NCBI GenBank assembly: GCA_050084515.1
Contig: CM114271.1
Location: 40,486,001-40,550,000, forward strand
Direction: 5' to 3'
DNA: 64,000 nucleotides
Source of the DNA: Blasia pusilla
Lineage: Eukaryota
The translations under genes and the position numbers were made by a program. Position 1 is the stretch's first letter; every line of letters begins with the position of its first letter. This document shows positions 5,447 to 57,352 of this stretch, one piece after another. The notes under the pieces are model-generated. The model worked only from the letters and a program-made list of their open reading frames with translations, searched no databases and was not told the origin of the DNA.

Positions 5447-5684
<238 letters not shown>

Positions 5685-5688
5685 ATTC

Positions 5689-14690: not shown

Positions 14691-15527
14691 CGGGGGGATT
14701 CACTTTTGTTGTTCAACTTTCCTTATTCGGGCTCGTTAACGAAGTCGTTCCGTGGATGGATGGGTAAGAGGCCAGTTTCGCGTGTGAAACATTTTTTAGT
14801 TTAGGTGACGTGCCTCATTAGGCACTTGAATAGTCACGAAATAACCATTTTTGTATGTGGGAGTGGTTTATTATGTTTTTAGTTAGGGTTCAATTTGTTT
14901 TTATTTTTTTTATTTTTTTTAACTATCTAGGTGGCGGCCGGGGATGAATGTAGCACTCACCCCCATCTAATGAATGTCCCAACTCAAATCTCTTCCAAAT
15001 CCCCTCTTGTTTGTTGTGACAACTTAGGTACTTATTATTATACGCAATTACTTTTTAGTCTATTTTAGCCTATAATTTGGCTTGAGCTAGATCGATGGTT
15101 CGCATTTAGGTTATGGCCGGGGTTAGCGATTCTAAATGATAACCTAAATCACTGCACTACCGATATGATTCGTTTGTTTGTTTTTTTACCGAATTAATTT
15201 TCATCAAAATAGTATGCAAACTTGGCTACTTTTCTTTCCCCTCATCTATGTCAGATTGTACATATGTAACTTACGTGTATCCTTATGTTCCCTTTCCATC
15301 TCATATCCATGGAAGGAATGGATTCGTACTCGTGATTGTTGCACTCAAATCCCGATCACTACTATTTGTCTTTTACAATACAATATGATGTCGTGAATGT
15401 TGTTGAGTCCTTTTTGGGTTTAGTTATTCAATTCATTTCTTCGTGGTATGCTTGATTGGTCAATGTTGCTTGCTCATTCACACTACCTTCCCTAAGCCCT
15501 CCTCGCTTCAACCAAGCTTTCACAACA

Positions 15528-15800
15528 CACCATCGTGCACATACAGATTTCTGGTTACATCTACCCAACATACAACACCAATACTCCCAACATACGGATA
15601 CATCCGAATACCCAAAAAATACACTCACGCATGTATACCAAGACCACGCTACCCGCCCCCTAACTGGGAGTTGGGTCCCTCTAATCCTAGATAGTAAACA
15701 TCACATCTACTAGACATGATTACTATCTTATACACATCGAGCATAAGATCTTTGCATAAAATTAGAGATGAATCCACATACATCAAAGATTGATACAAGG
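15528..15800 (-). mobile_element. Fragment of the putative DNMT-carrying retroelement family (internal 3' region plus LTR-end copy)
   Basis: Aligns by eye with 54320-54550 (gtgcacatac...ttgggtccc..taa.tcc.agatag) and with the reverse complement of 39700-39910. Confidence 0.75.
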
Positions 15801-27676: not shown

Positions 27677-28359
27677 CTCACCCCTCCTTAGAAGGTTGAT
27701 GTCCTCATCAAGGCAAACCTTTTTAATGTTAAGTTCTAGGAAGCCGACCCCTTAACAATGAATCATGTTTTGGTAGCTAACACGCAATTCCACTTTTGGC
27801 TTAAGTCTTAGGTTGTTGCTCGAAGCACTTATTTATTAGCTTCTTCACTTCAATTAGCCTAGACTAGTTTTCAGAACTAATCTAAACTATCAAAATAAGC
27901 TAACTAAGTCTGCAACCTAACACTTCACTCACTATTTGTAAACAACTGCATGTTTACCTAGCCAACTCGTACTACTTTTGGATCACTCATATTCTACCTA
28001 GGCGCATCACTAAGTTCACTCATGCAGCATGAATGAGATCACCATAAACCCAAGATAGACTAATCTGCCTCGCTGACGTTAGGGCGGGTCCAAATGTTAT
28101 TACTTCAACACGTGGTCATGATCTAGATGCCTTATCCAAATATAAGATCTCACCTCAAATACTCATTGTTTTGCCTCCTTGACTTACATCCTAAGCATAT
28201 GAAGAACTAGTCATTGCCATGCACTACCAAACTCAAAATCACAATCATTAGCATCGAATCTCCAAATCCATGCATTCTTTATTACAACAACTAAACTTTT
28301 ATAGTTACAATGAGTTATCGCCCCAAGCTTCCCGGTCACAAGTTATGTCCTTTGCTTCC

Positions 28360-31300: not shown

Positions 31301-32600
31301 AATCTAACTTCTCTCCGTTTGATATTAACCAAGATTCTCAACCTCAAAGGTCTTTGCCTTAGTTCCACCTCATACACATCCAAGAACGTGTTCCCCACGA
31401 CTCCATTGATTCCGTCCATGTCGCAAACTGTGAAAATCTCCTTCAACTCGAATACTCCGCATCCCACAACTAGCCCTAAAACCAACTCTAAGGTCTGATG
31501 GGACTTTCCTCCAGCAAATCCTACCTTAATGGGTTCATCCGCCTTAGTGGTTGGCAATCCCAATGTTTTCACGATTCTCGGGCTAAAAAATGAGTGTGAG
31601 GCATCTGTATCAACAAGCAACATCACATCGCGATCAGCGATCTTGGATCCTACGTAAACCAAATTGGGCGTTCTCTTGGTGACATGGAGAGATGTATCTA
31701 GATCTCCTACCAATAAGTGCTTAGCAACAAACGCAATCATACTCAATTTACTAACCTTGGGCCTCACACATTCCTTAGCCATATGCCCGGATTCGCCACA
31801 ATTGTCGCAAATCACTTTGGCGTTTGCTGACTTTGGGAAGGGCGGCCCTGTTGGCTTCGCGTTCAGTTCCAGTCATTTTGTTGCAGGGGCAAGAGACCCT
31901 GAGTGGTTTCGCTCACCCCCATTCCAAACCCTCTTGGATGCCCCTTTGTTTTTTGGTAACTTAGAAAAAAATTGGCTCAAAGGGTTTTTGATTTTGGACT
32001 TCATCGTCCCCTATCCGCTCCGCTAGCCTCAGAAGCTCCCCGCACGTCTCTAGAATGTGAGGCATACAAAAGAGGTCATTTTAGGCACTCGGATTGAGTC
32101 CGCTTAAGAAGATCACCTTCTTTGAAAACTCATCCGTGGAAAGTGAGCTCATTTGTGCACTGAACTCTCGCACATAAGCGCTAAGGGATCCAATTTGGCG
32201 CAACCTCAAAAACTCCATGCCATCGTGATACTCCTAATATTCCGGAGTGAATCGGTAACCAATCAACCCCTTGAACTCTTCCCAACTCAAACTTCTTCCA
32301 CGGCCCAGATGTTCTTTTCAGTGAGCCGTCCGCCAGTGGAGAGCGTGATCCTTCAAAAACGTGACCGCTACTGTCACCTTGTCTTGCTCCTCTCCCCTTT
32401 GCGCTTCGAAGTAAAGCTCCAGTTCCATTAGAAACTCGCACACTTTCTAAGAACGCCCCAATCCTGTTAATGATGTTGGCAAATTTGTCTTAGAAAGCTT
32501 CTTTCCGGAACTAGAGGCTCCATTCTACTTGAGTTCTACGATCAGCTTGCTATGTTGGGCCATCTAGTCCGCCATCATCTTCATCAAATCCATCATTTGG
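28360..32600 (-). pseudogene. gag-pol of the chromovirus, disrupted
   Basis: [106 protein letters not shown]...EYLIK*KGY. Confidence 0.93.
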
Positions 32601-32940
32601 ATATAAAAGGTTGGGTCATTTGAGTTTGGAGCCAAAGGCCCCACGAAAATATTTGCGTTCGGGACATCCTCATGTCTGGGACTCGGCACTTTGGGAGTCG
32701 CTATCTCCTCATCTGGCTCACGCTCAATCATTGATTTGTCTCACGGCTATTTTTATTTGACTTGCGGCTTCCTTGGTTCTTCGCCCTTGGTCACCATTTG
32801 CAAGTCCTCGCTTTCTTAGATCTCCTCCTTGTCTCTTGCATTCCTCCTCAAGCGTTGAGGTCTCCTTGCTTGAGTTTTTCTCAAACGTCCGGATCTTACA
32901 CCCCAAGTTTAGCTCACCAAGGATTTGCTCTTGTACCACG

Positions 32941-33972
32941 TGTCGTGCGCCTACTCTCCTTGAACGTTAATCTTTGTTGTTGCATAAGTGTGCGTTTAGT
33001 AGGTCACGCTCTCAATGCTGATCTGCATCAAAACACGCACTCACGTTAGTCGGGTCTGGATCAATCAACGGTTCTAAATTTTTGAGTCCTTGACTTGGGC
33101 TCTCATCAAGCTCAGCCTTCATAGTTTTGCGGTGTACAACATAGGCAAGTCTTGAAAGACTTGGGACAAATTTCTGGTTGGTTCAAGAACCTCAAATGGC
33201 GTTTCGTGCCGGCAATTCCAATTTTCCGATGGACATCCAATGAGTCCCTAATTGAGACTCACACAAAATGAATCACGAGTCGGAATCCAAGTGTGGTGTA
33301 CAAAGTACACTCCCTTAATTGGATCAGGTTTGGGTTTCGAGTTCCAACGCCAAACTCCTATTCCATCCCGTGACCTTGAGACGCCGCTTGGTGCTCAAAG
33401 TGGCATTCATGTTCCAAGACATCTTGGTGAGACTCCCCCTTACTAGTACTTCTAGGGATCTCGGGGGTCCCCCTAACTCCAGGTGAAGACAGCCAGACCC
33501 CTCAAATTACCCCTCAACCCGATTGCTCTCACAGTTATTTCCGGCCAATATCTCAGCTTGTACTTATGTATTTGCTAAGATCTCTAATGCATTGGAAGTG
33601 TTTCAAAATAAGGTTTCCAAAGCACCCTTAATTGTCTCAAATGCATCTTGGGGCTAAACGTTATGGTCCAAAACACAGTCCAATTCCCCAAACGCTAGTC
33701 GTGTTCCAAAACTGGTTCTCACCCCTTTGGCAACTAACCTTCCAAGACTCAACTCATCTCAAGTCTTGGTTCACGTTTGGCCTAGGTTTCCTGGTCGCTA
33801 CCACTAACACATGAAATGCACAACTCTATTCCGCGTTTCATCTCTTGGACTTTTCCAAGAGATCTTCCAAAAGCCTCTCCAAAGCGCAATCATCGCAGCG
33901 TGAGTCCACTTGAGTTCTAATGTTCCGTTTGGCGCCTATTTGGTGTTTGTTTATTTTATGAGGGTCATAACA
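32941..33972 (-). repeat. 5' LTR of the chromovirus
   Basis: TG...CA termini, adjacent to PBS-like site. Confidence 0.92.
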
Positions 33973-37299: not shown

Positions 37300-38350
37300 C
37301 AAGATGTTACGAGATTAGTCACGAAACACAAAGGGTGACAAGATAAACGTAAGAGGCCAAATGGCACGCATTAAGATGGACACTAGTCATGAGAAGCACA
37401 AAATGTGGCATAACGAGTCAAACATGCATCCTCAACCCGCGCATGCCCTCAACTCATTGTCGTATAGTAAAATCACCCACTATATAAATTCTTCTATCAT
37501 TAAGTGTTAGAGAGATTTTTATGAGTATTAAGTAAATTAGCCTAGGAAACTGAAATTCCCATGTTTAAACCTCTTTAGGGTGACTCATTTGCGCGGGCCC
37601 AACTTAGGAAAAGAAATAATAAATAAAAGATAGGATTATAAAAGTAAAGTAGTGGGGTTGGTAATTTAATGAAACAAAAGCAAAAATAGTATTGGTTGGA
37701 AGCTAAGATAGGTGGGATAGTTTGGAAGATTCGAAGGGAGTAAAATAGGATATTTTGGAAGAGATAAGAAATAATCTACTTATGCTAAAATCTGATTGGC
37801 TAAGCCTTGAGAGGAAGCCATGTGGCACAAGATAATATTAGCCCTATTTCGTACTCTTGTGGATCCCTTGTGAGTATATAAAGAGGAGGGACCTTCAAGG
37901 GTTCATCATCTTCTACTTCACATCTTGAATCTCTCGTGTCACTCTTGAGTGTATGGCTTTGGGATTGCTTATTCTTCCAATAAGAGTGGATTACCCCTCT
38001 TGGGAGAGTAACTTGACCTTGGTCTATTCTCCGAGAGGTTTCTGGAGTGTGGTATGTGTGGAGATGAGAGACTTGTCACCTTAGATGAGTTTAGTCATAC
38101 TAGGAATAGATGATGGTTTGGCTTATTATTTTCCCAATGAGAGTGGATTACCCCTCTTGGGAGAGCAACTCTGCCAAATCCCATTCTAGAGGAGAGTAGA
38201 TACTGTTTGTCAAGTATGGATAGGGATGGATTACGAGTTGTGCGGATTTTCCTTTCCTTACTCCGTACCACGTCAAGATTTTCTTTGTAGATGGGCATTG
38301 GTTCACTCGCTATTTAGTTTATCACTTTGGGGACGCGTTCATGAACCAAG
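37300..38350 (+). mobile_element. LTR-like sequence, boundaries uncertain
   Basis: TATATAAAG at ~37875 followed by a pyrimidine tract; 25-bp direct repeat gagtggattacccctcttgggagag at ~37984 and ~38141. Confidence 0.35.
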
Positions 38351-38768
38351 TCATGCAATCTCGAACTCCAGTGATTCTTCCTACAGTCACGTACGGAAGG
38401 ACATGGGACTGCACTTTATATGTCCTTATATAGCTATCCATGGACGTCAATAGTCATGCTCGAGTAGGGTTTAACATTATTTGTGCTATTTTCCTTGTGC
38501 ACAAACGTAAAGTAGTTTATAGGGACTTCATAGTTAGGAATTTTGGGGTTCCATGTTATGAAGAAGTGATCGCCTTGGCACTACCTTTCGTGATTCATGT
38601 CGTGAGAGAATGGAGGGTTTACATAATAATTTTGTACTGAAAAATGATATATTCTTATAGAGTTTGACTTGCATCAACCACGTCTCCTGCAGCTAGAAGG
38701 TCCCCCCTTACTCGAAGAAAGGCTCTCGACATGACACCGTCGTGTGCGGGCCCTATAAGGGTATGAGC

Positions 38769-39045
38769 CAAGGTTGCCTATGGACAAAGTTTGTATGTAT
38801 ATTCCTGGATTTAAGTATGTCCTATAGAATGGTTTGTCCGTGTGGGCCTCATCCCCCCTTTCTTTCTCATCGCCACTCCTCCCCCCTCCCACTTGCCTTC
38901 ATGATCTGCTATTTCTTGTTTCTTGCTCCTCCCACCTCCATTCCCTCCCTTCTTATTGCCCAATCCGCTCTTGCCCTACCTTCCACCATGAATTATAAGT
39001 GTGGGCCCTACTTCTTGCAATCCATATCCATGAGCATATCCAAAA
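38769..39045 (+). repeat. Dispersed repeat R, copy 4
   Basis: Same motif order as copies at 24.8-26.2 kb. Confidence 0.85.
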
Positions 39046-39065
39046 TTGTTCATTCATGACCGTCA

Positions 39066-39374
39066 TAGGGACAGACTTGTCTATTTTTGTGCAACCATAG
39101 CTTGAGCCCGCACAATAGGATTGATTGCGAGCCTGCCGTAGGCTAGTGCAAGCTATGCATGAGCCAAAAAATTGGTGCGGCTCAGCCAATTTAGGTCTAC
39201 GCAGTGAGCTCACGTGCAGGCTTGGGCGAGTTTTGTGGCCCGTGCATAGCCCACACTATCCCACGACTGGCCCATAATTAGTCCCATTGTGCGGACTCGG
39301 CCAATCCACGTCTACACAATGAGCTTAGGTGCGGGCTGCGAGTACCCGCGCCCGTATGGGCATGTGTGTCCGTA
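39066..39374. mobile_element. Old hAT-like MITE
   Basis: Imperfect TIR TAGGGACAGACTTGTCTAT vs revcomp TACGGACACACATGCCCAT (14/19); related end at 25692; no 8-bp TSD left. Confidence 0.45.
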
Positions 39375-39499
39375 AGACAAACGTGTGCAACCTTGGGAGA
39401 TTCAAACCCGATTAGCACTTGACAACTTCTCGATTATCTACAAAACATGCAATTGGTCGAGTCTTTGACACTCAACCCAAGACTTCTACTTGCAAAGAT

Positions 39500-40187
39500 C
39501 AAGATCGAGGGTTTAGGGTGTGTCAAGGTCTGCAAAAGGATAGGAGACTGTTAGATCTCTTTGGAGGAATCAACACGGAGGTTAGTTGCAATGTTGTACG
39601 CCAACATACGGCTATATCGGCTATATCGATATCTCTATCTTGAAATAGATAAGATGGATCCAAGGGAAAGCATGTGTTGGGAGATATTGTAGACATGACA
39701 GTACCAAGAGTGCTAGATGTGTATAGAATAATAAATCATGTTAGGAAGATGTGATGTCTGCTATAAATGTGGCATTAGGGTTACTGCATACATTGCGTGG
39801 TCTTGGTGTCCATGCGTGAATGTATTTTATTTGTTTATGGATCTACCTGTGTGTTGGGAAGATTGGTGATGTGTGTTGTGTAGGTGTGACCAATAATGTG
39901 TATGTGCACGATTGTAGTCACATCTTAGTTAGCCAATAGATAGAGCTCTACGGTGTTAATAATAGAGAGGGTAAACGGATTGTTTGGACGTAACTTTGTC
40001 TTGAGGTGTTGGATGAAGTTGGCTACAAGTCTTTGCATTGAGATTGTCTTTTTTGACAATCTCCCTCTTATGCTATTTTTGGCATGGTGCCCCGTTGATT
40101 GAGTCACCAGTCTCCCGATAACTTATGCGCACAAATTATCATTTGGAAGGCTAGTTTTGGGGGAAGAGTTTTTGTCTCTTTCCAAAA

Positions 40188-40281
<94 letters not shown>

Positions 40282-40593
40282 TGACTCTCTTAAGTCATCT
40301 TTTTCATGTCAAGCCTTTGGAGCACCTCTCTTGCTTAGTGTTTGGTAGGAGTTTGAGTGTTGGTATTCCCTCACAGCGGAGGATAGATATAGCTTGATAT
40401 TACGTGTAGATTTGAGAGTGGAGTTGTTGTGTGAACCATTTTTACTTCAATTTTGTTGTGTGGTTTTGGTGTATATTCGTGAGTGTATTTTGTTTGTGTG
40501 TGGATCTACCCGTACGTTGGAAAGATTGGTAATGTGTGTTGTGTAGATGTAACCAGCGATGTGGATTGTGTAGCAATGTGTAAGCGCGCAATA
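39500..40593 (+). mobile_element. 5'-truncated copy of the putative DNMT-carrying retroelement: DNMT-like remnant, LTR-end copy, then a complete LTR (~39916-40593)
   Basis: Reverse-complement homology to 53720-54640; LLDLFGGINT at 39548-39577, YLYLEID at 39630-39650. Confidence 0.8.
40191..40278. repeat. (AG)44 microsatellite inside the LTR
   Basis: Directly visible. Confidence 0.98.
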
Positions 40594-42929
40594 ATTTCTA
40601 ACGATAACATTCCCACTTTCACTATTTTCGCCCAATTGGAATGGGATCCTACTTTTCCTATTCTATTTAGAGTGCCTAATTGCAAGTGAAGGCCTAGGCA
40701 CGAAACGATATGAGGGTAAGTTTTTAAATGAAAATATTCCCCATTTGTTTTTCAACACCCTACTTTGACGCCATAACATTTCGAATACCCTAAAATGTAA
40801 CTTAGACTCAAAAGGTCAAGTTGAAGTTAGAGAGAATCCATAGTATTCTAATGAGCCAAACATACCTTACATTCCCTACATCAAGTTCCACTAGCAAGTA
40901 AGCACATCTCAAAAAAATGAAAAATGAAGTGACCAACCAAAAAAAAAAATGTAAGTTTGAAGAGATTACGGAGTTCCACTTTTGTGGTCAAGGGGCCTGC
41001 ACACCAAATTTTAATATCCATGGTGCGACATCTCACAATGCACATTCTCTTTGGGTACTCCTAAGACCCCCCTCTACATTGAAGACTAAAACATAGAAAC
41101 TTCTATGCATGTAAAACAGAAAACCATACATGAAACCGTCTATGGGGTTAAGCAATCGCCAACCCCCCATTTACGCAAAATCCATCAAGCAAACACCTAA
41201 AATAAAATAAAATGAAAAAGAATATCCGGTTGAGATACTAATTAGCCCGTGTCTCACCTTTGTAAAAAAACAACAGAAAACATTATTAATCTGATGCCTT
41301 GTGGCTGCTATGGAAGCTTTAATATTAGAACACTTTGGATAACTATTCCAAAAGTACATATTGTCTCGTAGCTAACCTTTCTCTAATCGCTCGAGGGCAA
41401 GTAGCAAGTTTCAATAGGATGAATAGCTAGGGTTTCCATATCTAGAGGAGTAGATGTTGGTATCGAAATTTGTTTTGGTTATGACATGGGAGAGATTTCA
41501 TTTTTGTTTCATTTCCAAAAGGAGAGAAGCTAGGAACAAAGGGTGAAGCACATTTATTGCAAGATAAGGAATATTTTGATTTTTGTTTTATGTTTTCCAA
41601 AGCGTCAAAAATGGCGAAAGAAAATATGAAACATGCTTTTGAATGATAGCTTAGTGACGTGGGATAGCCTTCCCTTTTGTTTGTGTTTTTCGAAGAGAGA
41701 AAGGAACCGAAAAAAGAAGACAATCCATGAACGTGGGTTGAACAAGGGTCTTACACGGTGTTGCCCATCTCTATCTTGTAACCCTCATCTTGGTACCTTA
41801 TGTGATGTCTCCCTTGTCATGTTCCTTTATGGCTTTTTCATTCCCTAAGCATCGAATGCTTTTTCCTCTCTAGGAAGTATTTATTGTTCACAACGTTTTA
41901 AGAGGTCTATTTTTTTACTGCCAGATTTTAGAGCCAATTTTCGTGGTTTCCCCTATGTCAGACACCCCTATGCCCCACACTTGCTTAGAGTCCAGGTTTG
42001 CTTTGAGTTATTAGGGTTATTGAATTCCCTTATTTGGGGGTCCCCAAACGTGTGTATTATGGCAGTTTATTGTCCTGAGCTATATGGGGTATCTAAAAAG
42101 TTATCCCGTTCACATATGAAGAAAAAAAATCATGAAGATAATTTTATTTCCTTCCTGAAATGATCAGTTTTAGATTACTTAATTGAATATAAATTCGCAC
42201 GCATGGATTCACGACTCCAAACTCCAATGGGTACTATTTGTCATTGCTTTTATTATTACTTTAAGGCACGGAAACCTCCAAACTAGTGCCATACCTCAGG
42301 AGTCAAAACTAGTGCCATTGCCATGAAATTCTCCATTCAAGAGCATTCGCTTTGTAGTTCAGCCGTGAAAAGGCGTGTGAAACCCTTAAAATCATTAGAA
42401 TATGTCCTAGTCCTCGGATATTACTATGATTTCCTCAACTATTCTTAGGTAAATGGATATTTGATTGCAAGAGAAACAAGTACATTATTTACATTATAAT
42501 TTCTGTGTAGTTTTTCGTATAAGACTCATAATAAGAATATTAATAAAATTAATAAATTAAGTCACCTTGATTCATCAAAACACTGAATTCTTGATTGATG
42601 CATGTTTTCCAAGGATTTTTCTTATGATGGATTTCAAATTTTCCATGGTTGTGAAAAAATAGAAATTTAAAATTTTTTGAATGTAAATCACAAGGGGATG
42701 ATATATAATTCTAATATAATTAAAAAATGACCACGTTGACCTCTTTTTGCTCTTAACATAAGTTAAATGGTCGAGTCTCATGATGGTTTGCTAAAATCAT
42801 GCATAAAGAAGGTTTTAAAAGTTTATAATGCAAGGAATATTGGGATACTTGGTGTAATAGTACTCCAAGATAAGGTACAATTACATAATCATCATAAAAG
42901 TTCGGAAAAATCTGGAATCCTTTTATTGT

Positions 42930-45030: not shown

Positions 45031-47513
45031 TACACCATTATTAGAGATTTTCAATTAATTTTATAAACATATCTCTTCTTGACACTTAAAAAAATAAATT
45101 AATAAATTTTCATATTAATAAAATATTTAGAATTTGATCATAAAAAATAATTTTAAAAAATTCCCGAAAGTGGAAAGTTTTGGGGGTGGTCGTGTTGCAC
45201 GGGTTACGGCGACATCTGCTTAATATGTAAATTAGAAGTACAAGTGTCGGTATGGCGGCCCCGTCCAAAGGAGTCCCTACAAGTGGGGGAGGCCGGCGGC
45301 CAATATGAGCGTATTTCCCGTCTTGATCACAAGCGGTTCCAGTTTTACTTATACCCCCGGTCCTTGAGGACCGGACCGGACCCGGGCGTGGAAAAAGAAA
45401 TTGGTATGGGTCAGTGGATCGCCATTGCGAAAGCTGCTAGGGCACTTTCGTGCTCGTTGTCGGGACAGAGTAGCAATTGGAATGAGGTAGTATGACAGGG
45501 AACGGCTTCAACTCGCTCATGCGGATTCGACCGAAGGTGCCGGTCACGTGGCACATCCTTCGCATTGCCGGCCCTGACCGACCGAAGTGGTCGAACCGTG
45601 GAAGGCGAAGGGGAGAGGACCTTTCAGCGTATCCGGAATGAGTGTGGATCCGGGCCACGGCGGTGAGGCTACCGGCGATTTCAGGCGGTCATGGGAGCGC
45701 GGCGATCTCCTCGCTGTTGATGGTGTGTGAGGAGGACACCTGGTTCAATCAAAACCTGCCCGTCCTTCCATCAAAGATTCCCGCCCGGCCCCAGAGTTAC
45801 GAACTATGATTCCTTCCCGGGCACGCGTGGCAGTACAGTGGCGACGCGCGACGATGTGACTCGGATAGGACCGTTTCTGTTCGGGGCCGCCAAAGATCAA
45901 CCTGGGCCGTGAATAGCGAACCGGGAATAAGGGATTGATTGCTAAATGGAAACTCTCGCCGGATACGCGCGAACGCGGAGTGTTCCTCAGGATGGCACCG
46001 AAAGCCGGGGTCGACAAACCGTCGCCGGGTTCGTTTCACAACTTCCCAGGCAGGAATTGATGTCCCCGGGGCTGGGAGCCTACACGCGTCGTAGCTTGCC
46101 AACTGCAGAGCGACGTGGAGTGGGCCCGGCCGTGTTGTGTAGTTTTGGAGGAACGGCATTCCGTGAGTGAAATTAAACATTGGCGGCAGCCGGTGGCCGT
46201 GCTGCGTGAGTAGCGCGGGCGGGGTGGAGTCGAAGCCGGCGCGATTTCGCCCGTTACGCCAGGGCCAAGCGCCAGGGTTTCAGATAGCCGTGCGATTCGC
46301 TAGATCGGACGACGGGTCGCGAGAGAAAATGGCACATAACCAACCGGATCGCGGAGGGTTAAGGCCCGGTTGGCAAAGGTTAAATTTGGCGGTATTTGGA
46401 CCGGCTAACCGGCGGGTCCCGAAAGATATCGGTCCTGCGACTCCTGCCTTCCAGTCTCTGCATCTCGTCTTGCTCCGTACTACTTCCCGGTGGGGACCTG
46501 TCAGGTAACTCATGCTCGTCTTGTGCAGCTGCAGCAGGAGCAAGACTCTTCCTCTCTGTCTTCTCTTTTCTTTGAGCATCTATCTTTTCAAGCGCTGCTG
46601 CTGCTGCTGCTCATCTCCTAAGAAGGGCTCTCTGCTCTCTCCGGACATACCGCCTCACTGCGAATGTGCCCGGCCCACGTCTTCTGCAAGAGAGGAATCA
46701 GAGAGATAGGGGCTGCAATTGGGCCGCAGATTTGGAGTGATTGATTGTCAGCCCGCGCGCGCCACCGACTTTTCTCTCTGAGCTTCTCGCACCGTAATAC
46801 GTTCCACTTCGACACACACTCATCATCTTTCGTGGAGGCAGAGGAGGAAACGATTTCGAGCATCTCACGCGATGAGGGGCTGAGAGGACGAGTCATAACC
46901 CTAGAGATTTCCCTTCATTAACCTGTTGAGCCTGCCATCGGTGCTGGAAGAGAGGAATCAGAAATCTGTGGCGCAGCAGGAATCGGTGCAGAAAAAGCGC
47001 TCGTAGTAAAATTCAGACAGCCATCCTGGCTTGTGCTTGCGGATAGCGAGAGAGATGGACGGTCTAGAGATGGGTAGAAGGAGACGGCATTGAGCGAAGG
47101 GAGGGAGGGGGTAGGACATATGGGAGCGAGAGGAGAAGGCTCAGGGGTGGAGAGCTGGTGGAGGAAGAGCAGGAGAGGGAATGATGAGGAAGAATGGGAA
47201 GCCGGGAGGTTTGAAGGGAGCAGGACGAGGAGGAGAGTGGACATGGCAGAGGAAAATAAATCCTCGGTGAGAGTGACCTCGGGTGCCCTTGGGAGGTAGA
47301 TCTCAGTACCGGAACTACGTACGAAGTTTTCGTCAGGGTCTTCACTGGATACCAATCCCGAATCGATTTTTTTTCTCTGGAGCACTCAGTAGCAACTTCC
47401 CACGGAAACAGATGTCTGCATCTTAGACCGATTTCTGCTTACAACGAGCCGAGCGTCCCTCTCTCGGGACCTGGGAAGTTTCTACGTTCTCCGATTTGAG
47501 ACCGGATTCCACA

Positions 47514-49878
47514 ATGACGGTGTCCAAGCTGTGCAGGTCGCCTTCCTCGTTATCTCGGTCGCCGACCATTAAGTCGAACATTGATAGTCTTTCCAACTTA
47601 TTCGACGCGGCTCAAAGTTATGAGAAGGATATTGATCTCGTGAGGGAAGCTAGCAGGAATCGCGCAATCCTAATGGGAGATGTTTCCTTCTCCAATCCCC
47701 TGCATCCTAATCACCAGAGGAGGTTTGAATTGCAGGTGATGCTTCCCCGTCTGGTTCTGGTCACAATTCCTTTCGTCTGGTGGTTTGTGAAGGGTACTCC
47801 TTACTACCGATTGATCGGAATTCACACAGACGACATCGCCCTTTGGTTCTGGTTCGATTTCCTTGCTCTCCTCATCTTCTTCACCGCGCTTGTGGTCTCT
47901 GCCCGCCTCGCCTTCCCTCAAATGTCTTTGAACTCCAACGCGCCTCCTCTCTGCGTTGTGAAGGCCATTTTGGGTCAAAGCTGGGGAAGCCTGAGCTCGA
48001 ACTGGCTCAAACCCCTGGCAGCACTTATCTCCGAGGACAAAAATCGAGGGAAAGGTCTGGCCGCGACTCAGAAGACCAGTACTGTCACTTGGACGATCGG
48101 GTCGAGCAACACTAAACCCGTCAAAGAGCACGTCGCAGAGGAGAATCTCGACGGTGAAGGGGTGCAAATCTACAGCAATAGGGATGTATACGAAGGGGAG
48201 TTCCATCGGGGACGGTGTTCAGGGAGTGGTGTGTACTACTTCTATAAGAGTGGTAGGTACGAGGGAGAGTGGGTTGACGGCAAATATGATGGATATGGGG
48301 TTGAAACTTGGGCTCGCGGCAGTCGCTACAGGGGACAATATCGACAAGGTTTGCGAGATGGGTATGGAGTTTACCGCTTCTACACTGGTGATGTCTATTC
48401 TGGCGAGTGGTCGAATGGTCAAAGTCATGGTTGTGGAACGCAAACCTGCGAAGATGGCAGTCGTTACCGAGGGGAGTTCAAGTGGGGTGTAAAGCACGGC
48501 TACGGCTTCTACCATTTTCGGTGAGACAGGTTCCTTCGCGCTTGTATCCATCATTTCCATTCCTAGTGGCAATCCTGTTCGTTCGAGTAACGGTCAAGAG
48601 TTTTTCAGGTTGAAAATTTCTGTTTAGCAGACCTCGCGGAGAACAACGAGCACGTCGGATTGGGCACTCACTCTCAGCCACACTTAGCTAGAAAAGGATG
48701 GTTTCTGATTACAGGACATGCACCGAAAGTTGCGATGGAAGAATTTTCCTTGCGTGAATTTGCCTTTCAATTAGAGGATATTTTCTGATGCTCCTCTGCG
48801 CTTCAGTTCTTAGGCTACAGGATCCATGGTGAGATCCTCAACTGCATTAGAGGGCGGAGATAGCAGGGATTTGGGATTTGGGATTTGGTTCTTCATTTAG
48901 CCTGTGTCCACTTCTCCACCCTACTTCGTTATCCTAAACGCGCCCAGGCCGCTCCACGGTTGCACGCAAGGAACGATAACCTCATTCTTGTGCTTTTGGC
49001 GTGGCAGGAACGGGGATACCTACGCCGGGGAGTACTTTGCCGATAAGATGCACGGCTACGGGGTGTACCAATTTGCGAATGGCCACAGGTACGAAGGGTC
49101 TTGGCACGAAGGAAGAAAGCAAGGATTGGGCATCTACACTTTTAGAAACGGCGAAACTCATGCCGGACACTGGCACCATGGAGTTTTGGAGATACGAAGC
49201 TCGCAAAATCCAGCCCCGGGCTCGTCAACCGCCATCTACCACTCCAAAGTTTTGAACGATGTTCAGGTTTGTTTCTCATGCTTTTCACGGTTTCAAATCT
49301 TTACTGGCATTGAGTTACATCTCACTCTTCTGGGGATTGCTCTCCGTTGCAAGAGAGCGAAAGAGTCGAACGAAATCTAGGCTGTTGTCAGATAATTGCG
49401 CACAGGAGATCCACGCCCAACGCGCTTGAAGGATCTCTTCAGCTTCCCACCATAGACATCGGTAGCTTGCAACGCGTACGACGACTTGTCGCTCATCGAC
49501 TTATCACTCATAGTTGTCAAGTCGCTTTCTACTGCATCGACTGATCTTCTCTACGGTTTGTGACGGCCGGAGCTTCCTCCTACGGGGGATTCTACGCAAA
49601 CTCGTTGCGACTTCGAAGCGGAATTGCGTTCGTTTTGACTCTGCAAGTGTTTGAAATTGTTCGCTTCGCTTCTCGAAGGAGTTGCGTGCCTGACTTCCCT
49701 CTTGGACGCGCAGGAAGCAAGGCGTGCCGCAAGCAAAGCAATGGATGTCCCCCGAGTTGAAGACAGAGTGAACAAAGCAGTAGCGGCTGCGAACCGATGT
49801 GCCAATGCAGCTCGAGTAGTGGCGGTCAAAGTAGTTCAAAAGCGCAACGCCACGCCTTCCGCCGAAGAAATGGTGTGA
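47514..49878 (+). CDS. Plant MORN-repeat protein with N-terminal transmembrane segments (junctophilin-like), ~476 aa; exons 47514-48520, 49008-49266, 49714-49878
   Basis: Tandem YxGxW/F..G..xGxG repeats (YEGEFHRGRCSGSG, YEGEWVDGKYDGYG, YAGEYFADKMHGYG...); C-terminal RVNKAVAAANRCANAARVVAVKVVQ; GT-AG introns keep frame. Confidence 0.93.
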
Positions 49879-52459: not shown

Positions 52460-52790
52460 ATCCCCTCATGAAAAAAGGTTCAAGAGAGAATGAGCTCACC
52501 CACCTTGCATATACTACTTTCTCCTATCCTTAAGCTCTCTCCTTGATGACCTATGCTCATAGATCACCTCTTTCGCTATTGACTTGCAATAATGGCTTAA
52601 GGGTCGCTTCTTGAAAATTGAAATGGAAATTAAAAAATACTCACAATAGAACTAACCCAAAATAGTAAATTCTTAAACATGATTCCAAATAAGTCCAAAA
52701 GAAGAGGTAACCTGCTTTCTCAAGTTACCTTAGTCATCAGCAGATAACCTTGACCTCATGAGGTTGTTCTTTGATCTCCTCAAAGACACG
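52460..52790. repeat. Uninterrupted relative of the LTR-like element split by the chromovirus
   Basis: ctcatg..aggttcaa..gagagaatgagctc ... atactca..aac/taacccaaaatagt aligns across the 26679/33973 junction. Confidence 0.7.
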
Positions 52791-53302
52791 GTTAGACACC
52801 CTATGTAGGATTTAGGGTTTGGTACCTAAAATATGCCATGACCCACACGATATCCAAGTCCTCTCCCTTATATGAGCTTTATAGACTTTGCATTTGGAGT
52901 GTTTTTCAATTGACTCACATAAGTAGAAAAAATAAAATTCCTTGCCTCGTCATCTCTATGTAGGCACTACTCTTAGGCCTAAAACACTCCAATATGTATG
53001 TAATTGTAATGAACAAGCTCTAATAGGTCGACATAAACTTAATAAGAATATCAATGTCTTTAAGTTTCTCAAATCCTTATCATCAACCTAATGCCACACT
53101 TGTTCAAGTCTCATAAAAAACTTCTAAGATTTTGCGATCATTCTAAACCCCTTGATACATCGTCATTATAAGTTATTTAATTCTATAGTTAAAATTTTCA
53201 ACTCAACTCACAGTTTCACAACGCAGAATACACATAATAGCTTCTGATTTTTTCTATTGAATATTTGACCCATGTGGATATAGGATGTGACCTAATTAAT
53301 CG

Positions 53303-53783
53303 TAATGATCTTCGAAGGATTTTCCCTTTCCTAGAGCAATTACATTATTGTTATTTTCATTAAAATTACATGGAGCAATTACATTATTGTTATCCGGTGT
53401 TGTGTGGTGTGTAGATGTGACTAGTGATGTGGGTTGTGTAGCGATGTGTATGCGCACGACATGGTACATAGATCATATTGTTATCTTCAATTTCTCCGTT
53501 GAGAAGCACAAAAAAAACTTGGAGGAGGTATTTTGATGATAACAATAATGTAATTGCTCATAATGATCGTCGAAGGATTTTCCCTTTTCCTTACGATGTT
53601 ATTGATGATAACAATAATGTAATTGCTCCATGTTATTGTTATCATCAAAATACCTCCTCCAAGTTTTTTCTGTGCTTCTCAACGGAGAAATTGAAGATAA
53701 CGATATGATCTATGTACCATGTGCGCATGCACATCGCTACACAACCCACACCATTGGTCACATCTACTCACCACACAACACCG
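53303..53783. repeat. Long inverted repeat (~155-bp arms, ~53395-53548 vs ~53633-53783) with shuffled short duplications
   Basis: Arms pair with few mismatches; gagcaattacattattgttat twice forward and twice reverse; taatgatc.tcgaaggattttccc twice. Confidence 0.93.
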
Positions 53784-56700
53784 ATCTTCCCCACATACGG
53801 GTAGATCCACACATAAATGAAACATACTCACGCATATACACTAGGATCCCACAACAAAATCAAGAGTAGTAAAAATGGCTCACTTGGCCTAAAATTCCAC
53901 TCATGAATCTACATCCGCATATCGAACCACATCCACCCTCTGCTATGAGGGAATCCGGATGCTAGCACCCTAACTCCTCCACATCCACACACGTCTATGC
54001 AAGAGAGGGGCTCCTAAGGCTCAATATGAGAAAGATGGCTTGGGAAAGCTATCTTCCTCACTCTTATACCCTTGGGAAGAGCCAAAAGGCTCTTCCCCCA
54101 AAAATTGCCCTACCAAAGGTAACTTGCGTGCACCCGGGTCACATGACGGACTAAAACCAAAAAAGGAAAATTTCCATAAACAACATTCCCGGCACAACAA
54201 ACTTGTCGCCAACCTCATCCGACATCTCGGAACGAAATTACACCCGAACAACCCGTTGACTCTCTATGCCGTCGACGCAATAGAACTCAACCTACGTCGA
54301 AATAAGACATGACAATTGTTGTGCACATACACATCACTACACAACCCACATCGCTGGTCATATCTACACACCACACAACACCAATCTTCCCCAACATATG
54401 GGTAGATCCACATATAAATGAAACATACTCACACATATACACTGGGACCCCACGACCGCGCCCCTAGGTGGAAATTGGGTCCCCCTAACTCCAGATAGCA
54501 CACACATATGCACTTGATAAGATCTCCTATCCTACCCACATCTAGCACCATCGGTGCTGTTATCCCCGCAACCCTGCCACACTACAGCAACCCGCCGTGT
54601 TGATCCCTCCAAAGGGATATAACACTCTCGTACCTTGCTCCGCGCATCTCAACGCTCGTCCCCAACAACAATATCGAAGCTCCGCACCATGGGAAAAGAC
54701 ACCCACCCTGGCATGTCTCTCCGTGGGACTATCCGCTACAGGAATGTCCTTCGCATGTGTGCTCCTCTCCGTGAACCCTCTTGATCAGCCAACACCACGT
54801 GTGAATGCATCTAGCGTGGTCATCGTATCCTCACGTGGTCGACCACCACTACTCCCTGCAAACTGCACCGATAGATGGCTCACATGTCCATCACCTGATC
54901 GTCACCCTGGCCGATAAGAAAGTGTCTCCTCCCAAAAATCCAAAATGAAACCTAGAGGGTACAGCACCGTACTCCCTACCAACACATCATACAGCTCTTC
55001 CGGTGTCGTAATCTCCCGAGTGCGCACCATTGCACTATCCGACTCATGCTCTTGCTAGAGTCTAACCACTAACTCATGTCGAGTCATGTACTACGTGGGT
55101 GATACGCCCCCAATAAAGGTAAGTATCTAAAAGGGAAAACGCTCAATGTCGCATTTCCATAATCCCAACGCCAAACACACCGCCTTCCTTACCAATAAGG
55201 GTTGCGCTCCCGAATCAAGTAGGACGCGCTGCGGGTGGTACACCGTACCGTACCTATGGGACTAACCAAGAAAAACACTCCTGCTCGCTTATCCAAAAAC
55301 ACCACACCTGGTGTGATCATGGCTCGCTCTATCGCTGGCCTAGTTGGCATATCTACCAACTTCGCCGTCGCCGCATGCCATGACTCAGGGCAAGTCCACC
55401 ACCTCCTCAACTACCTTTTGAACGAGAGGCAATCACCTCTCCACACTCACACAACGTGGCGGCCAGCCGGAACACCTACGCTCGTCCAACTCCATGGCAG
55501 AAAACAACGGAGCTTGGCTCAACCTAGTGGCCACCTCCAACAATGTGGTCGACATTGGCTCCTCCCGAGCCGGCATAAGAGTCGTCTCTCCAACTCCTCG
55601 TGACGTCGACATATTTATCCCACCTGTGGGTACTACCAATCGTTGAGGCACCATCGACAGTGTATGTAGTGCCTCCGACAATGTGAACGATTGGGGAACC
55701 TTGACATGCCGACCATCAGTCCTCTCTTGTGGGTCAATCTCAACCCCACCTCTTAGTGGCTCGGTCACTCTCGCAGCACCCCGAGTCACTACCACAACAA
55801 CCTCAACGTGAGCCGCACTACACATAAATCCCATCCCCGCAGAATCCTCATCAACATCATGGTAAGATGTGGAGGCTCGCGCCACACTAGCTACCCTCAG
55901 CTTCGCGCCTGCCTGCAGCTGCATCATCGTCATCGCAACAATCCTCTCCTCCAACTCATCGATGCGGGTAAGGAGCGCTGCATCGGGTGCACGTCCTCCA
56001 TCTCCTGTGGTAGGTGATGGCACTCTACCACCACGATCATCCACCACTCGATCTCCACCAACTCTCTCACCTCCAAGTCTTCTGCCTACCTAAGGACGTA
56101 CCTCCTGACGAAGATCATTATACCTATCCCTAGTGTGACCATATCGATGACAATGTTCACACTACAACTGTGGTGGGGCCATCCTTTGTGGCTCCTGAGC
56201 AATCGAAGGTGCTTGTGGCCCTCTCCCATACTGTGGGCAGTCCCTCTGCCTATGTGGCCCACCACACGTCCAACAAGCCAACCCTGGCCCCTGCTGGGAA
56301 ACATATGTCGGTATGGGCCCTTGCCTCATTAGCTCACAATACCCGCCCTGCTCTCTGGGTCAACCGGCCCGCTCTCGTGGTACTGGTGCATGCTAGGGCA
56401 CCTGTGGGTCTACTCCTACTCGTCGAGCTGTCGAATCCCGTGAAAATTCCGTGGTCATCACCTGCTCCTCACTCATGTTGAGCTCTACACGCTCAGACAA
56501 CTCAAAGACCACCTTCAATGTGGGCTTCGCCGTGTGAAGCAACATCGCATCCCGAACTCTCCTCCGTACCAACGATAACCTGCGTGCACAGATTACGGAG
56601 TGACCGTTGACTCGGTCAACCGGTCATCGGAGGGACTAAAACCAAAATAGGGAAATTTCCATTAACGACGTTCTCGACACAATAGACATGTCGCCAACCT

Positions 56701-56799
56701 CATCGGACATCTCGGGACGAAGTTACATCCGAACAGCCCGTTGACTCTCTATGTTGTCGACGCGATAGAACTCTACCTACGTTGAAATAAGATGTGACA
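53720..56799 (-). mobile_element. Internally deleted LTR retroelement (gag C-terminus, protease, DNMT-like remnant; no RT/RH/IN), TG...CA ends, 4-bp TSD ACCA
   Basis: Full LTR 53720-54314; partial LTR 56567-56799; extra LTR-end copy 54317-54450; zinc knuckle CWTCGGPHRQRDC (~56235-56275); protease-region YDVLVGSTVLYPLGFILDFWEETLSYRPG (~54905-54995); ACCA at 53716-53719 and 56800-56803. Confidence 0.85.
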
Positions 56800-57352
56800 A
56801 CCATCAAATATAATCAAAACCTACCAAAATCCTATCAATGACCCACTAGAAGTTTGTATGGACGTTCTTCAACCCCAATGGTAAGAATTGCCGTTGATAC
56901 ACAAAATCTCTTTGAAATCGATATATCCTCCAAATTTTTGCTTGGTCCCTATCCTTGACCATGATAGGAAGCTAAATGATAGCCAATACAAATTTATAAT
57001 GTACTAGAGAACTTTGCATGCCCAATCTCATCAAAGATTTTTTAAAATAGAACGACCATACTCATTTGACCGCGTTTGTTGACTTATAGGATGATAATCT
57101 CCAAACATCTACTCATCTGCCTAATTTCCATACATATCCTTCTTCATTGACATGATTGCAGATAATACATACTTTCCATGTGATGACTCCTCCCTACCAC
57201 AAGTCCTAACGCCCACTTTGAATCAAGGCTCTCTCCATGGCGGAATACTTGTAGGATCATCAAAAGATTGGCATATCACTAACAAATCTATCAATATGCT
57301 AGGAACTTTCAACGTACCCAAATCCCTAACACTGAAGGTAAACCCAATCTTA

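What the first reader, a model, noticed from the sequence alone, without database searches (positions are those of the whole stretch)
39500..39810. Retroelement family carrying a cytosine DNA methyltransferase-like domain (clearest motif copy)
Seen: RRLLDLFGGINT (to 39577) then, after a +1 shift, LVAMLYANIRLY(RLY)RYLYLEIDK (to ~39653), immediately 5' of the LTR structure. Established: C5-DNMT motif I is (L/V)(D/E)LFxGxG followed by a helix and a strand ending E-x-D (SAM binding); DNMT-encoding retrotransposons have been reported in dinoflagellates and charophyte algae (de Mendoza et al. 2018). Inference: this land-plant genome harbours, or harboured, Ty3/Gypsy-like elements encoding their own DNMT between protease and RT, potentially self-methylating their cDNA. 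Only motifs I-II are convincing; no intact PCQ catalytic motif is visible.
Basis: partly seen in the sequence, partly recalled or inferred. Interest (0 to 1): 0.85.

Follow-up and report, generated by a model that had tools for sequence, protein, structure and literature searches.

The report
Dead methyltransferase remnant of a retrotransposon
The short methyltransferase-like motif is real: it is the decayed front end of a DNA-methyltransferase gene once carried by a Gypsy-type jumping element, a kind so far described in a green alga and here traced to liverwort-like land plants.

Summary
Both peptide strings are present. Local tests are blank: no PF00145 hit, and canonical FxGxG is not met.

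Homology settles it. A second copy at 56799-53721(-) has gag knuckles, a protease and the same motif. Its protease and motif sit in one frame. Its relatives (125 hits) include liverwort proteins. Calypogeia fissa P0001 reads RLLDLFGGINT-G-LVAVLQAGIKVHQYLYVERNE. The window's two frames match it collinearly: 11/11 identities, then 12/31. No shuffle of 1000 reaches the combined score.

Intact relatives carry PF00145 with PCQ and ENV. They are nearest to DNMT3A/B. Their order is protease-DNMT-RT-RNase H (P0133, P0162). A metagenome element reads gag-PR-DNMT, stop, RT-RH-IN-PHD.

The window copies are dead, internally deleted and non-autonomous. One has a 5-bp target duplication inside an older element's RT.

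It is a new member of the known Gypsy-DNMT3 kind. I found no land-plant report.

The parts
39440..39541 (+). Copy A: 3' part of the linker between protease and DNMT. The copy is 5'-truncated near 39440.
   Evidence: DNA similarity to copy B begins about here (alignment). WGS depth rises from 0-2.5 (39120-39439) to 16 (39440-39519). No gag or protease similarity lies upstream.
39542..39577 (+). Copy A: DNMT motif I relic, RRLLDLFGGINT (SAM-binding loop, Dnmt3-type LF-x-G-I-x-T)
   Evidence: 11 of 11 residues identical to Calypogeia fissa P0001 residues 282-292, E 2e-5. DNA is 77-80% identical to copy B at 54636-54573. WGS depth is about 50, against 0 in the unique flanks.
39578..39581 (+). Frameshift site: four bases where relatives have one codon (Gly293 of P0001)
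   Evidence: Read.
39582..39674 (+). Copy A: relic of the helix after motif I and of motif II (LVAMLYANIRLY[RLY]RYLYLEIDKMDPRESM). It contains a 9-bp tandem duplication at 39609-39626.
   Evidence: 12 of 31 identical and 21 of 31 similar to P0001 residues 294-321. The one 3-residue gap falls exactly at the RLY duplication; E 7e-4. It aligns with DNMT3A [22 protein letters not shown] through P0143. Most of 39601-39694 is missing from copy B and from most family reads: depth is 5.7, and joints skip 39594>39695 and 39577>39710.
39695..39792 (+). Copy A: short non-coding stretch between the deletion junction and the terminal repeats. It is shared with copy B (54563-54457) and fragment C.
   Evidence: blastn, alignment, WGS depth about 52.
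39793..40590 (+). Copy A: 3' terminal direct-repeat block. Repeat b1 is 39793-39915, repeat a2 is 39914-40455 (with a (GA)n run at 40191-40281), and repeat b2 is 40456-40590, ending ...GCGCGCA.
   Evidence: b1 and b2 are 80-82% identical. The whole block is collinear with copy B 54456-53721. WGS depth reaches 360 and falls to 0 beyond 40640.
53721..56799 (-). Copy B: a complete but decayed, internally deleted element of 3079 bp. Parts in order: repeat a1 56799-56564; gag C-terminal part with two CCHC knuckles 56551-56099; protease 55249-54930; linker; DNMT motif I relic VLYPFGGINT 54625-54596; repeat b1 54456-54320; repeat a2 54315-53856; repeat b2 53855-53721.
   Evidence: tblastn: P0128 residues 211-805 are collinear with 56551-54719. 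P0001 residues 97-307 match 55249-54554 in one HSP, E 7e-53. Repeats a1/a2 are 85% identical over 179 nt, and b1/b2 88% over 137 nt. There are 14 in-frame stops in 603 codons. No RT or IN lies inside it.
56800..56804 (-). Target-site duplication ATGGT, 5' side of copy B
   Evidence: Read. Removing the element and one ATGGT restores the host RT frame...DRILVGFDYI*W|YIDHIVIFN aligns with P0133 ...DRILAGLDFVRCYIDDILVFS.
53716..53720 (-). Target-site duplication ATGGT, 3' side of copy B
   Evidence: Read. The host RT resumes at 53716 (P0133 residues 868-890).
52825..57342 (-). Older host element E0: decayed RT and RNase H of the same lineage, split by copy B. RT lies at 57342-56807, and RT/RNase H at 53716-52825.
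   Evidence: tblastn with Marchantia P0133. Residues 723-865 match at 36-51% identity (E 4e-12 and 1e-6). Residues 903-1058 match at 37-57% (E 7e-12). The window's chromovirus RT matches P0133 at only 27%. Pfam sees nothing in E0.
15510..15743 (-). Fragment C: an isolated piece of the same terminal-repeat region (equivalent to 39711-39930)
   Evidence: blastn, 70% identity over 235 nt; alignment.

Best explanation
Window 39542-39674 is the decayed first 45 or so codons of a Dnmt3-type cytosine-C5 DNA methyltransferase domain: motif I, the following helix and motif II. The domain belonged to the polyprotein of a Ty3/Gypsy-type LTR retrotransposon.

Intact relatives have the order gag(CCHC)-protease-DNMT-(stop)-RT-RNase H-integrase. 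The closest named relatives are liverwort proteins from Calypogeia fissa and Marchantia polymorpha.

The two window copies are non-autonomous deletion derivatives. Everything from DNMT motif II to near the 3' end of the internal region is gone. That includes PCQ, ENV, RT, RNase H and IN. What remains is gag-PR-DNMT stub-terminal repeats.
- Copy A (39440-40590) is also 5'-truncated. It carries a +1 frameshift, a 9-bp duplication and stop codons.
- Copy B (56799-53721, minus strand) was integrated with a 4-5-bp target duplication into the RT gene of an older element of the same lineage.

Shown: the homology, the domain order in relatives, the deletions, the insertion site, and that the family is multi-copy. 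Inferred: that the copies were mobilised in trans by autonomous DNMT-bearing relatives. Also inferred: that in intact elements the enzyme methylates cytosines, either on the element's own DNA or around it. Neither window copy can make an active methyltransferase.
For: 1. Collinear two-frame match of copy A to P0001 residues 282-292 (11/11) and 294-321 (12/31). In the shuffle test, 0 of 1000 shuffles reach the score against three liverwort relatives.
2. Copy A is homologous at DNA level to copy B. In copy B the motif lies in the same HSP and frame as the protease (E 7e-53).
3. Searching with copy B's gag-PR gave 125 hits at E<=1e-3. Of 9 long hits scanned, 3 carry PF00145 above the gathering score, downstream of the protease.
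4. Of 25 longer relatives of P0001, 15 carry PF00145 in precomputed Pfam. Ten of these are Marchantia gene models and one is from Calypogeia. All 8 rescanned pass the score.
5. Of 35 relatives with at least 250 residues after motif I, 33 have PC[QN] and 33 have EN[VI].
6. The nearest solved structures to P0143 are DNMT3A/3B/3C (E 8e-11), then plant DRM.
7. Domain order in relatives: P0133 DNMT-RT-RH; P0162 PR-DNMT-RT; L001 PR-DNMT | stop | RT-RH-IN-PHD.
8. Copy B has direct terminal repeats, an ATGGT duplication, and exact restoration of the host RT frame on excision.
9. WGS reads give depth about 50 on the motif I block and 0 on the unique flanks. Joint reads show the copy-B-type deletion elsewhere in the genome.
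Against: No PF00145 hit appears on the locus itself, in 4 ORFs or in 6 read-through frames. A family-specific DNMT HMM scores the motif I fragment only 5.6 bits, E about 1, third of 3248 fragments.

The canonical FxGxG is absent. The 11-residue tblastn match alone has E 0.046 per query, among 125 queries. So the case rests on collinearity, on the link to copy B, and on the fact that the place was fixed beforehand.

Pfam sees no protease, knuckle or RT in copy B or in E0. Their identity rests on tblastn and phmmer against relatives.

The source species is not known. A MORN-gene search shows only that it is plant-like. No intact copy from the window's own genome was seen, because no assembly is held. 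No LTRs were found on the metagenome contigs L001 and L003, so the repeat layout of intact elements is unverified.
Confidence: 0.88

Rival explanations
1. Chance resemblance: a short methyltransferase-like string in non-coding retroelement DNA (3' untranslated region, polypurine tract or LTR start). This was my own first reading.
For: No Pfam hit. The partial motif is expected 0.72 times per window, and 53 of 100 shuffles contain it. Only 75- and 45-aa ORFs are present. A purine-rich run followed by TGTTAG at 39549 looks like a tract-plus-LTR start.
Against: Collinear two-frame match to P0001; 0 of 1000 shuffles reach the score. Copy B has the same string in frame with its protease, and relatives continue from that string into a full DNMT domain. 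The true element ends are fixed elsewhere by the target duplication.
Confidence: 0.02
2. A fragment of a host (cellular) DNMT3 or DRM gene, as a pseudogene or as a piece captured by a retroelement, and not a domain native to the element family.
For: The domain is Dnmt3-type. Bryophytes have cellular DNMT3 genes (stated in PMC5890265 section 9).
Against: The same junction of protease, 75-90-residue linker and motif I is found in copy B, in Calypogeia P0001 and P0143, in at least 10 Marchantia models, in a Coleochaete transcript and in metagenome elements. The block is multi-copy. In L001 the DNMT sits in the gag-PR ORF directly upstream of RT-RH-IN.
Confidence: 0.04
3. A relic of another class I SAM methyltransferase, such as a plant O-methyltransferase. 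Or a degenerate RT motif of the DDLFDxLxGA kind, as seen in the window's chromovirus.
For: The best PDB matches of the 75-aa ORF are plant O-methyltransferases, over FRV..G......LLD..GGI.T.VS, with E 0.8-1.6. The chromovirus RT reads [15 protein letters not shown].
Against: Those E-values are at chance level, and Pfam Methyltransf_2 is not hit. The match to the TE-DNMT family is exact and extends into the second frame. No RT domain follows.
Confidence: 0.01

Closest known systems
KnitGypsy-Dnmt3 of the charophyte Klebsormidium nitens (de Mendoza et al. 2018, PMC5890265; passages and section 9 read)
   Same: A Dnmt3-type, non-rearranged DNMT domain inside the polyprotein of a Gypsy-type LTR retrotransposon in a streptophyte. 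Key catalytic residues are conserved in intact members. The repeats are unusual: the paper calls them DIRS-like, and the window copies have a one-sided a ... b-a-b layout.
   Different: The relatives here are in land plants (liverworts) and in Coleochaete. The paper attributes the acquisition to the K. nitens lineage. The window copies are deleted and dead. Common descent with the Klebsormidium elements is untested, because I had no sequences. I could not see where the DNMT sits in the K. nitens ORF, because figures are not held.
Gypsy 'pol' proteins with DNMT between RNase H and integrase (Scenedesmus sp. PABB004 pol, P0168; metagenome P0163)
   Same: The DNMT domain is related, 39-42% identical to Calypogeia P0143. 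They have Ty3/Gypsy RT, RNase H, IN and a C-terminal PHD finger, as locus L001 has.
   Different: Their domain order is RT-RH-DNMT-IN-PHD, not PR-DNMT-RT-RH-IN-PHD.
SymbioDIRS-DNMT3 and SymbioLINE-DNMT of Symbiodinium; EpiLTRs of Cymbomonas and Euglena (PMC5890265; bioRxiv 10.64898/2026.05.21.726589, passages read)
   Same: Retroelements that carry a cytosine methyltransferase.
   Different: They have DIRS or LINE backbones. In EpiLTRs the DNMT is sister to the DNMT4 clade; in Cymbomonas it is appended to the 3' end of pol. EpiLTRs also carry an adenine methyltransferase.
Cellular DNMT3A/3B/3C, and plant DRM
   Same: They are the best solved-structure matches (E 8e-11 for DNMT3A). Motif I aligns LFGGISTG with LFDGIATG, and motifs II, IV, VI and VIII also align.
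   Different: The TE proteins have no PWWP or ADD domain. They are embedded after a retroviral-type protease.
Non-autonomous, internally deleted LTR retrotransposons (LARD-like; the name is recalled, not from a call)
   Same: Copies A and B keep terminal repeats and part of gag-PR but lack RT and IN. Copy B still shows a clean target duplication.
   Different: They retain a stub of an accessory enzyme domain, which marks their parent lineage.

Membership tests
C5 cytosine DNA methyltransferase domain (Pfam PF00145), Dnmt3 type | Motif I SAM-binding loop | tested here: met
   The window reads LFGGINT, identical to P0001. The family reads LFGGISTG, aligned to DNMT3A LFDGIATG. The canonical FxGxG form is not met: 0 matches in the window.
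C5 cytosine DNA methyltransferase domain (Pfam PF00145), Dnmt3 type | Motif II: a strand ending in an acidic residue | tested here: met
   YLYLEIDK aligns with P0001 YLYVERNE and, through P0143 YFYVERDE, with DNMT3A YIASEVCE.
C5 cytosine DNA methyltransferase domain (Pfam PF00145), Dnmt3 type | Catalytic motif IV (PCQ), motif VI (ENV) and motif VIII (RxR) in the window copy | tested here: not met
   No collinear PCQ or ENV. The only G.PCQ string in the window is on the opposite strand, at 40079-40093. The family HMM finds nothing beyond motif I. These motifs are present in relatives: 33 of 35 have PC[QN] and 33 of 35 have EN[VI] (sequences).
C5 cytosine DNA methyltransferase domain (Pfam PF00145), Dnmt3 type | Significant profile hit to PF00145 | tested here: not met
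   The window locus gives none in 4 ORFs and 6 read-through frames at E<=10. Relatives pass the 22-bit gathering score: 3 of 9, 8 of 8, 4 of 4, and L001 ORF1.
Gypsy-DNMT3 retrotransposons (KnitGypsy-Dnmt3 kind) | DNMT3-type domain inside the polyprotein of a Ty3/Gypsy element | tested here: met
   In copy B the protease and motif I lie in one frame. P0133 reads DNMT-RVT_1-RT_RNaseH. P0162 reads PR-DNMT-RT. L001 reads PR-DNMT | stop | RT-RH-IN.
Gypsy-DNMT3 retrotransposons (KnitGypsy-Dnmt3 kind) | Own RT, RNase H and integrase in the copy at hand | tested here: not met
   Copies A and B have none. Only the older element E0 keeps RT and RNase H relics.
Gypsy-DNMT3 retrotransposons (KnitGypsy-Dnmt3 kind) | Terminal direct repeats and a target-site duplication | tested here: met
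   Copy B has repeats a1/a2 at 85% identity and b1/b2 at 88%. It has ATGGT on both sides, and excision restores the host frame.
Gypsy-DNMT3 retrotransposons (KnitGypsy-Dnmt3 kind) | Common descent with the Klebsormidium elements (DNMT and RT trees) | not tested
Gypsy-DNMT3 retrotransposons (KnitGypsy-Dnmt3 kind) | Purifying selection on the DNMT domain among copies | not testable with these tools
   This needs coding DNA of many copies from one genome, and no assembly is held. One hint: the 90%-identity clusters of P0128 and P0143 hold 18 and 11 members.

The most novel reading that the evidence does not exclude
Liverworts, and so land plants, inherited from streptophyte algae a lineage of Ty3/Gypsy retrotransposons that encode their own Dnmt3-type methyltransferase, and may still keep it active. 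Intact-looking copies exist in Marchantia polymorpha and Calypogeia fissa. The enzyme would methylate the element's new DNA or its neighbourhood. The acquisition would then be ancient in the green lineage and not specific to Klebsormidium. Marchantia would offer a genetic model to test what a transposon-borne DNMT does.
Probability: 0.35. Interest if true: 0.8.

Novelty: new member of a known kind. Interest (0 to 1): 0.6.

Why it matters
Retrotransposons that carry a cytosine methyltransferase have been described in print for dinoflagellates and one charophyte alga. Their function is still unknown.

This relic, together with the intact-looking relatives it led to in Marchantia and Calypogeia, places the Gypsy-DNMT3 kind in land plants. 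It also suggests a wider and older distribution. Coleochaete, liverworts and many environmental contigs carry it, and a chlorophyte 'pol' has the domain in another position.

Marchantia is genetically tractable, so the role of a transposon-borne DNMT could be tested there.

There is also a practical point. At least ten Marchantia gene models with PF00145 look transposon-derived, and one is named a DNA (cytosine-5)-methyltransferase by UniRef. Such models can inflate counts of host DNMT genes.

The window locus itself is dead and has no function.

Tried and rejected
- My first reading was a chance motif at a polypurine-tract/LTR boundary. I dropped it.
- PF00145 and all of Pfam, run on 4 local ORFs and on six read-through frames of 38000-41000: nothing relevant, only low-complexity hits on the (GA)n run.
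- Pfam on six frames of 53000-57900, and on the minus frames of 50200-53342 and 56800-61001: nothing.
- A family DNMT HMM built from 17 relatives, run against six frames and against 3248 stop-to-stop fragments. Only motif I was found, at E about 1, and no other DNMT relic.
- Upstream of the E0 RT there are three weak collinear matches (58717-58598, 58128-58066, 58037-58005). Each has i-E about 0.5 or worse, so they are not claimed. A CLLD string at 60435 is judged chance.
- PDB phmmer of the two ORFs gave O-methyltransferases at E 0.8-1.6 for one and nothing for the other.
- A search for a tRNA-Met primer-binding site found one match, in the chromovirus, and none for this family.
- tblastn of copy B's internal region and of the chromovirus ORFs against the window found no further copies.
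- No whole genome is held.
- No RNA holder is listed. The two RNA runs laid gave 44 and 43 reads on 2400 bases, none at 95% likeness or more, and almost none on 39440-39760. I draw no conclusion on expression.
- A search with the MORN-repeat ORF to name the species showed only that it is plant-like.
- Earlier findings of this scan returned nothing.
- No terminal repeats were found on contig L001; L003 has only a 144-nt tandem pair.
- Six literature searches found no land-plant report. Supplements were closed, so DNMT trees and tables in the supplements of PMC5890265 and PMC12344493 may already include such liverwort sequences.

Full report
WHAT IS AT THE LOCUS. The two strings are there. RRLLDLFGGINT is encoded at 39542-39577, in the frame of a 75-aa stop-to-stop ORF (39416..39643). 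LVAMLYANIRLYRLYRYLYLEIDK is encoded at 39582-39653, one frame over, in a 45-aa ORF (39555..39692). Between them, four bases stand where relatives have one codon. The extra RLY is a 9-bp tandem duplication (CGGCTATAT x2, 39609-39626). No long ORF lies nearby.

LOCAL TESTS ARE BLANK.
- hmmscan against Pfam gave nothing for the four local ORFs.
- It gave nothing relevant for six read-through frames of 38000-41000.
- The canonical motif I, FxGxG, is not met, because the string is F-G-G-I-N. The strict pattern has 0 matches in the window.
- The part that is met, [LVI][DE][LVI]F.G, is expected 0.72 times per window. It occurs in 53 of 100 shuffles.
- PDB phmmer gave only plant O-methyltransferases at E 0.8-1.6 for the first ORF, and nothing for the second.

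On this evidence I first read the string as chance at the edge of a repeat. That reading was wrong.

THE SECOND COPY. The stretch from about 39440 to 40590 (copy A) has a diverged counterpart on the minus strand at 54730-53721. This counterpart is part of copy B. Upstream of it, copy B encodes two CCHC knuckles and a D-S-G-A protease. The counterpart of the motif reads VLYPFGGINT. Most of 39601-39694, which encodes the 'motif II' string, is missing from copy B.

RELATIVES.
- I searched with copy B's internal region (603 codons, X at its 14 stops) against 1.84 billion representative proteins. There were 125 hits at E<=1e-3, 37 at E<=1e-10 and 2 at E<=1e-30.
- Of 9 long hits scanned with Pfam, 3 carry PF00145 above the gathering score, downstream of the protease (P0021, P0025, P0087).
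- The best hit, P0001, is a Calypogeia fissa protein. Others come from Marchantia polymorpha and from a Coleochaete scutata transcript.
- After its protease and a linker of about 72 residues, P0001 reads ...EQGIRLLDLFGGINTGLVAVLQAGIKVHQYLYVERNEAARRAS....
- One tblastn HSP (E 7e-53) aligns P0001 residues 97-307 to copy B at 55249-54554. It runs from the protease through the motif, in one frame.

THE MATCH OF COPY A.
- Copy A's first frame matches P0001 residues 282-292 at 11 of 11 positions (E 2e-5).
- Its second frame matches residues 294-321 at 12 of 31, with 21 of 31 similar. The single 3-residue gap falls at the RLY duplication (E 7e-4).
- In a shuffle test of 39416-39700, 0 of 1000 shuffles reach the summed two-frame score against P0001, P0143 or P0128. 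Against the distant P0025, 7 of 1000 do.
- A family-specific HMM alone does not make the fragment significant: 5.6 bits, third of 3248 fragments.

So the case rests on three things: the collinearity, the link to copy B, and the fact that the place had been fixed before the search.

WHAT THE FAMILY IS.
- Of 25 longer relatives of P0001, 15 have PF00145 in precomputed Pfam. Ten of them are Marchantia gene models and one is from Calypogeia. All 8 that I rescanned pass the gathering score.
- P0143 (Calypogeia), P0126, P0128 and P0133 show DLFGGISTG, YVE(R/K)DE, GWPCQG, ILENV and RAHRxRLWWTN.
- Of 35 relatives with at least 250 residues after motif I, 33 have PC[QN] and 33 have EN[VI].
- The nearest solved structures are DNMT3A, 3B and 3C (E 8e-11 and up), followed by plant DRM. 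LFGGISTG aligns to DNMT3A LFDGIATG. The domain is therefore Dnmt3-type, which explains why FxGxG is not met.
- Domain order: P0133 (Marchantia) reads DNMT 460-529, RVT_1 833-919, RNase H 974-1098. P0162 reads PR-DNMT-RT.
- On metagenome contig L001, ORF1 (976-5085) holds protease and DNMT. It is followed in the same frame by ORF2 (5086-8229), which holds RVT_1, RNase H, Integrase_H2C2, rve and PHD.
- A more distant set, including a Scenedesmus 'pol', has the order RT-RH-DNMT-IN-PHD.

ANATOMY IN THE WINDOW.
- Copy B runs from 56799 to 53721 on the minus strand. It is flanked by ATGGT at 56804-56800 and at 53720-53716.
- It sits inside the RT of an older element, E0. Marchantia P0133 matches E0 at 57342-56807 (residues 723-865, 36-51% identity). 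The match resumes at 53716 (residues 868-890) and continues at 53331-52825 into RNase H.
- Removing copy B and one ATGGT gives ...DYI*W|YIDHIVIFN, collinear with P0133 ...DFVRCYIDDILVFS. This fixes the element ends as TG...CA, with a 4-5-bp duplication.
- The repeats in copy B are a1 (56799-56564), b1 (54456-54320), a2 (54315-53856) and b2 (53855-53721). Repeats a1 and a2 are 85% identical; b1 and b2 are 88% identical.
- Copy A has b1 (39793-39915), a2 (39914-40455) and b2 (40456-40590), and ends ...GCGCGCA.
- Two readings of the repeats are open: plain a+b LTRs with an extra b upstream of the 3' LTR, or a split-direct-repeat layout. I could not decide between them, because copy B's 5' repeat runs into a deletion that also removed the first roughly 210 residues of gag.
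- Both copies pass from the DNMT stub to the same pre-repeat sequence (39695-39792 and 54563-54457). So the loss of PCQ through integrase predates both copies.

COPY NUMBER. Genomic reads were laid at 80% likeness, using about 1 in 100 of run X11. Depth is 0 on the unique flanks, about 50 on 39520-39599, 5.7 on 39600-39679, about 52 on 39680-39759 and up to 360 on 40480-40559. Joints skip 39594>39695 and 39577>39710, three reads each, as in copy B. Of 2621 laid reads, 2275 are under 90% alike. The family is multi-copy and old.

COMPARISON WITH WHAT IS KNOWN.
- De Mendoza et al. 2018 (PMC5890265; passages and section 9 read) describe Dnmt3 domains in the Pol ORF of a Gypsy element of Klebsormidium nitens. 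They ascribe the acquisition to that lineage.
- A 2026 preprint speaks of 'streptophytes (Gypsy-DNMT3)'.
- A 2025 paper repeats the 2018 report.
- Six full-text searches found no report for liverworts or any other land plant. Supplements were closed and may hold such sequences.

I file this as a new member of a known kind. Descent shared with the Klebsormidium elements is untested.

FUNCTION. The window copies cannot make an enzyme. For intact relatives, cytosine-C5 methylation follows from the conserved motifs and the DNMT3 match. What the enzyme methylates and why is unknown, both here and in the literature I read.

THE REST OF THE WINDOW. A chromovirus at 26724-33966(-) has gag, protease, RT, RNase H, integrase and a chromodomain, but no DNMT. 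It is not related to this family beyond a zinc knuckle.

Noticed in passing
window 26724-33966 (-): A fairly complete Ty3/Gypsy chromovirus. It has LTRs of about 950 bp that are 85-88% identical, plus Retrotrans_gag, zf-CCHC, protease, RVT_1, RNase H, Integrase_H2C2, SH3_Tf2-1 and Chromo, spread over three frames. It has no DNMT.
   Followed up: partly
window 53395-53783: An inverted duplication of about 290 bp at 79% identity. Its arms hold the tail of copy B's b2 repeat, the target duplication and the host RT YIDD segment; P0133 residues 868-890 match both arms. This is a rearrangement that happened after the insertion.
   Followed up: partly
window 38880-39119; also 24805-25107 (-) and 25311-25466: An unrelated high-copy repeat just upstream of copy A. 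WGS depth is 80-190 against 0 in unique DNA, with low-level RNA reads from other copies.
   Followed up: no
L001 5083-5088: In a complete metagenome relative, the gag-PR-DNMT ORF and the RT-RH-IN-PHD ORF are in the same frame, separated by a single stop codon. This suggests expression of RT by stop read-through. It would also explain why many gene models end after the DNMT.
   Followed up: partly
P0163, P0168 (Scenedesmus sp. PABB004 'pol') and about 20 metagenome proteins: A second architecture: a related DNMT (35-43% identical to P0143) sits between RNase H and integrase, with a C-terminal PHD finger.
   Followed up: partly
window 58717-58005 (-): Three weak matches to the C-terminal half of the family DNMT, upstream of the E0 RT: RDDLWCTN, KPINDESEQ and VGQMMDLSCLK. 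They are collinear and the last two are correctly spaced. Each alone is not significant.
   Followed up: partly
window 6129-10439 (+): Four long ORFs in series that look like a LINE-type element; the RT-like ORF contains an FADD box. I did not scan them against Pfam.
   Followed up: no
window 47427-49380 (+): A MORN-repeat protein gene in a GC-rich (0.51-0.55) stretch. Relatives carry PF02493, and the best named hits are land-plant proteins at 58-66% identity.
   Followed up: partly
window 40191-40281 and 5449-5690: Long (GA)n/(TC)n microsatellites. The first lies inside the a2 repeat of copy A. It produces spurious RERE protein hits to Atrophin-1 and DUF3915.
   Followed up: no
Marchantia gene models P0004, P0005, P0039: Annotated 'hypothetical proteins' that are decayed gag-PR-DNMT relics. 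P0004, for example, keeps LLDLFGGISTG and AYIMKNV but lacks PCQ. One relative, Mp_8g17980, is named a DNA (cytosine-5)-methyltransferase by UniRef.
   Followed up: partly
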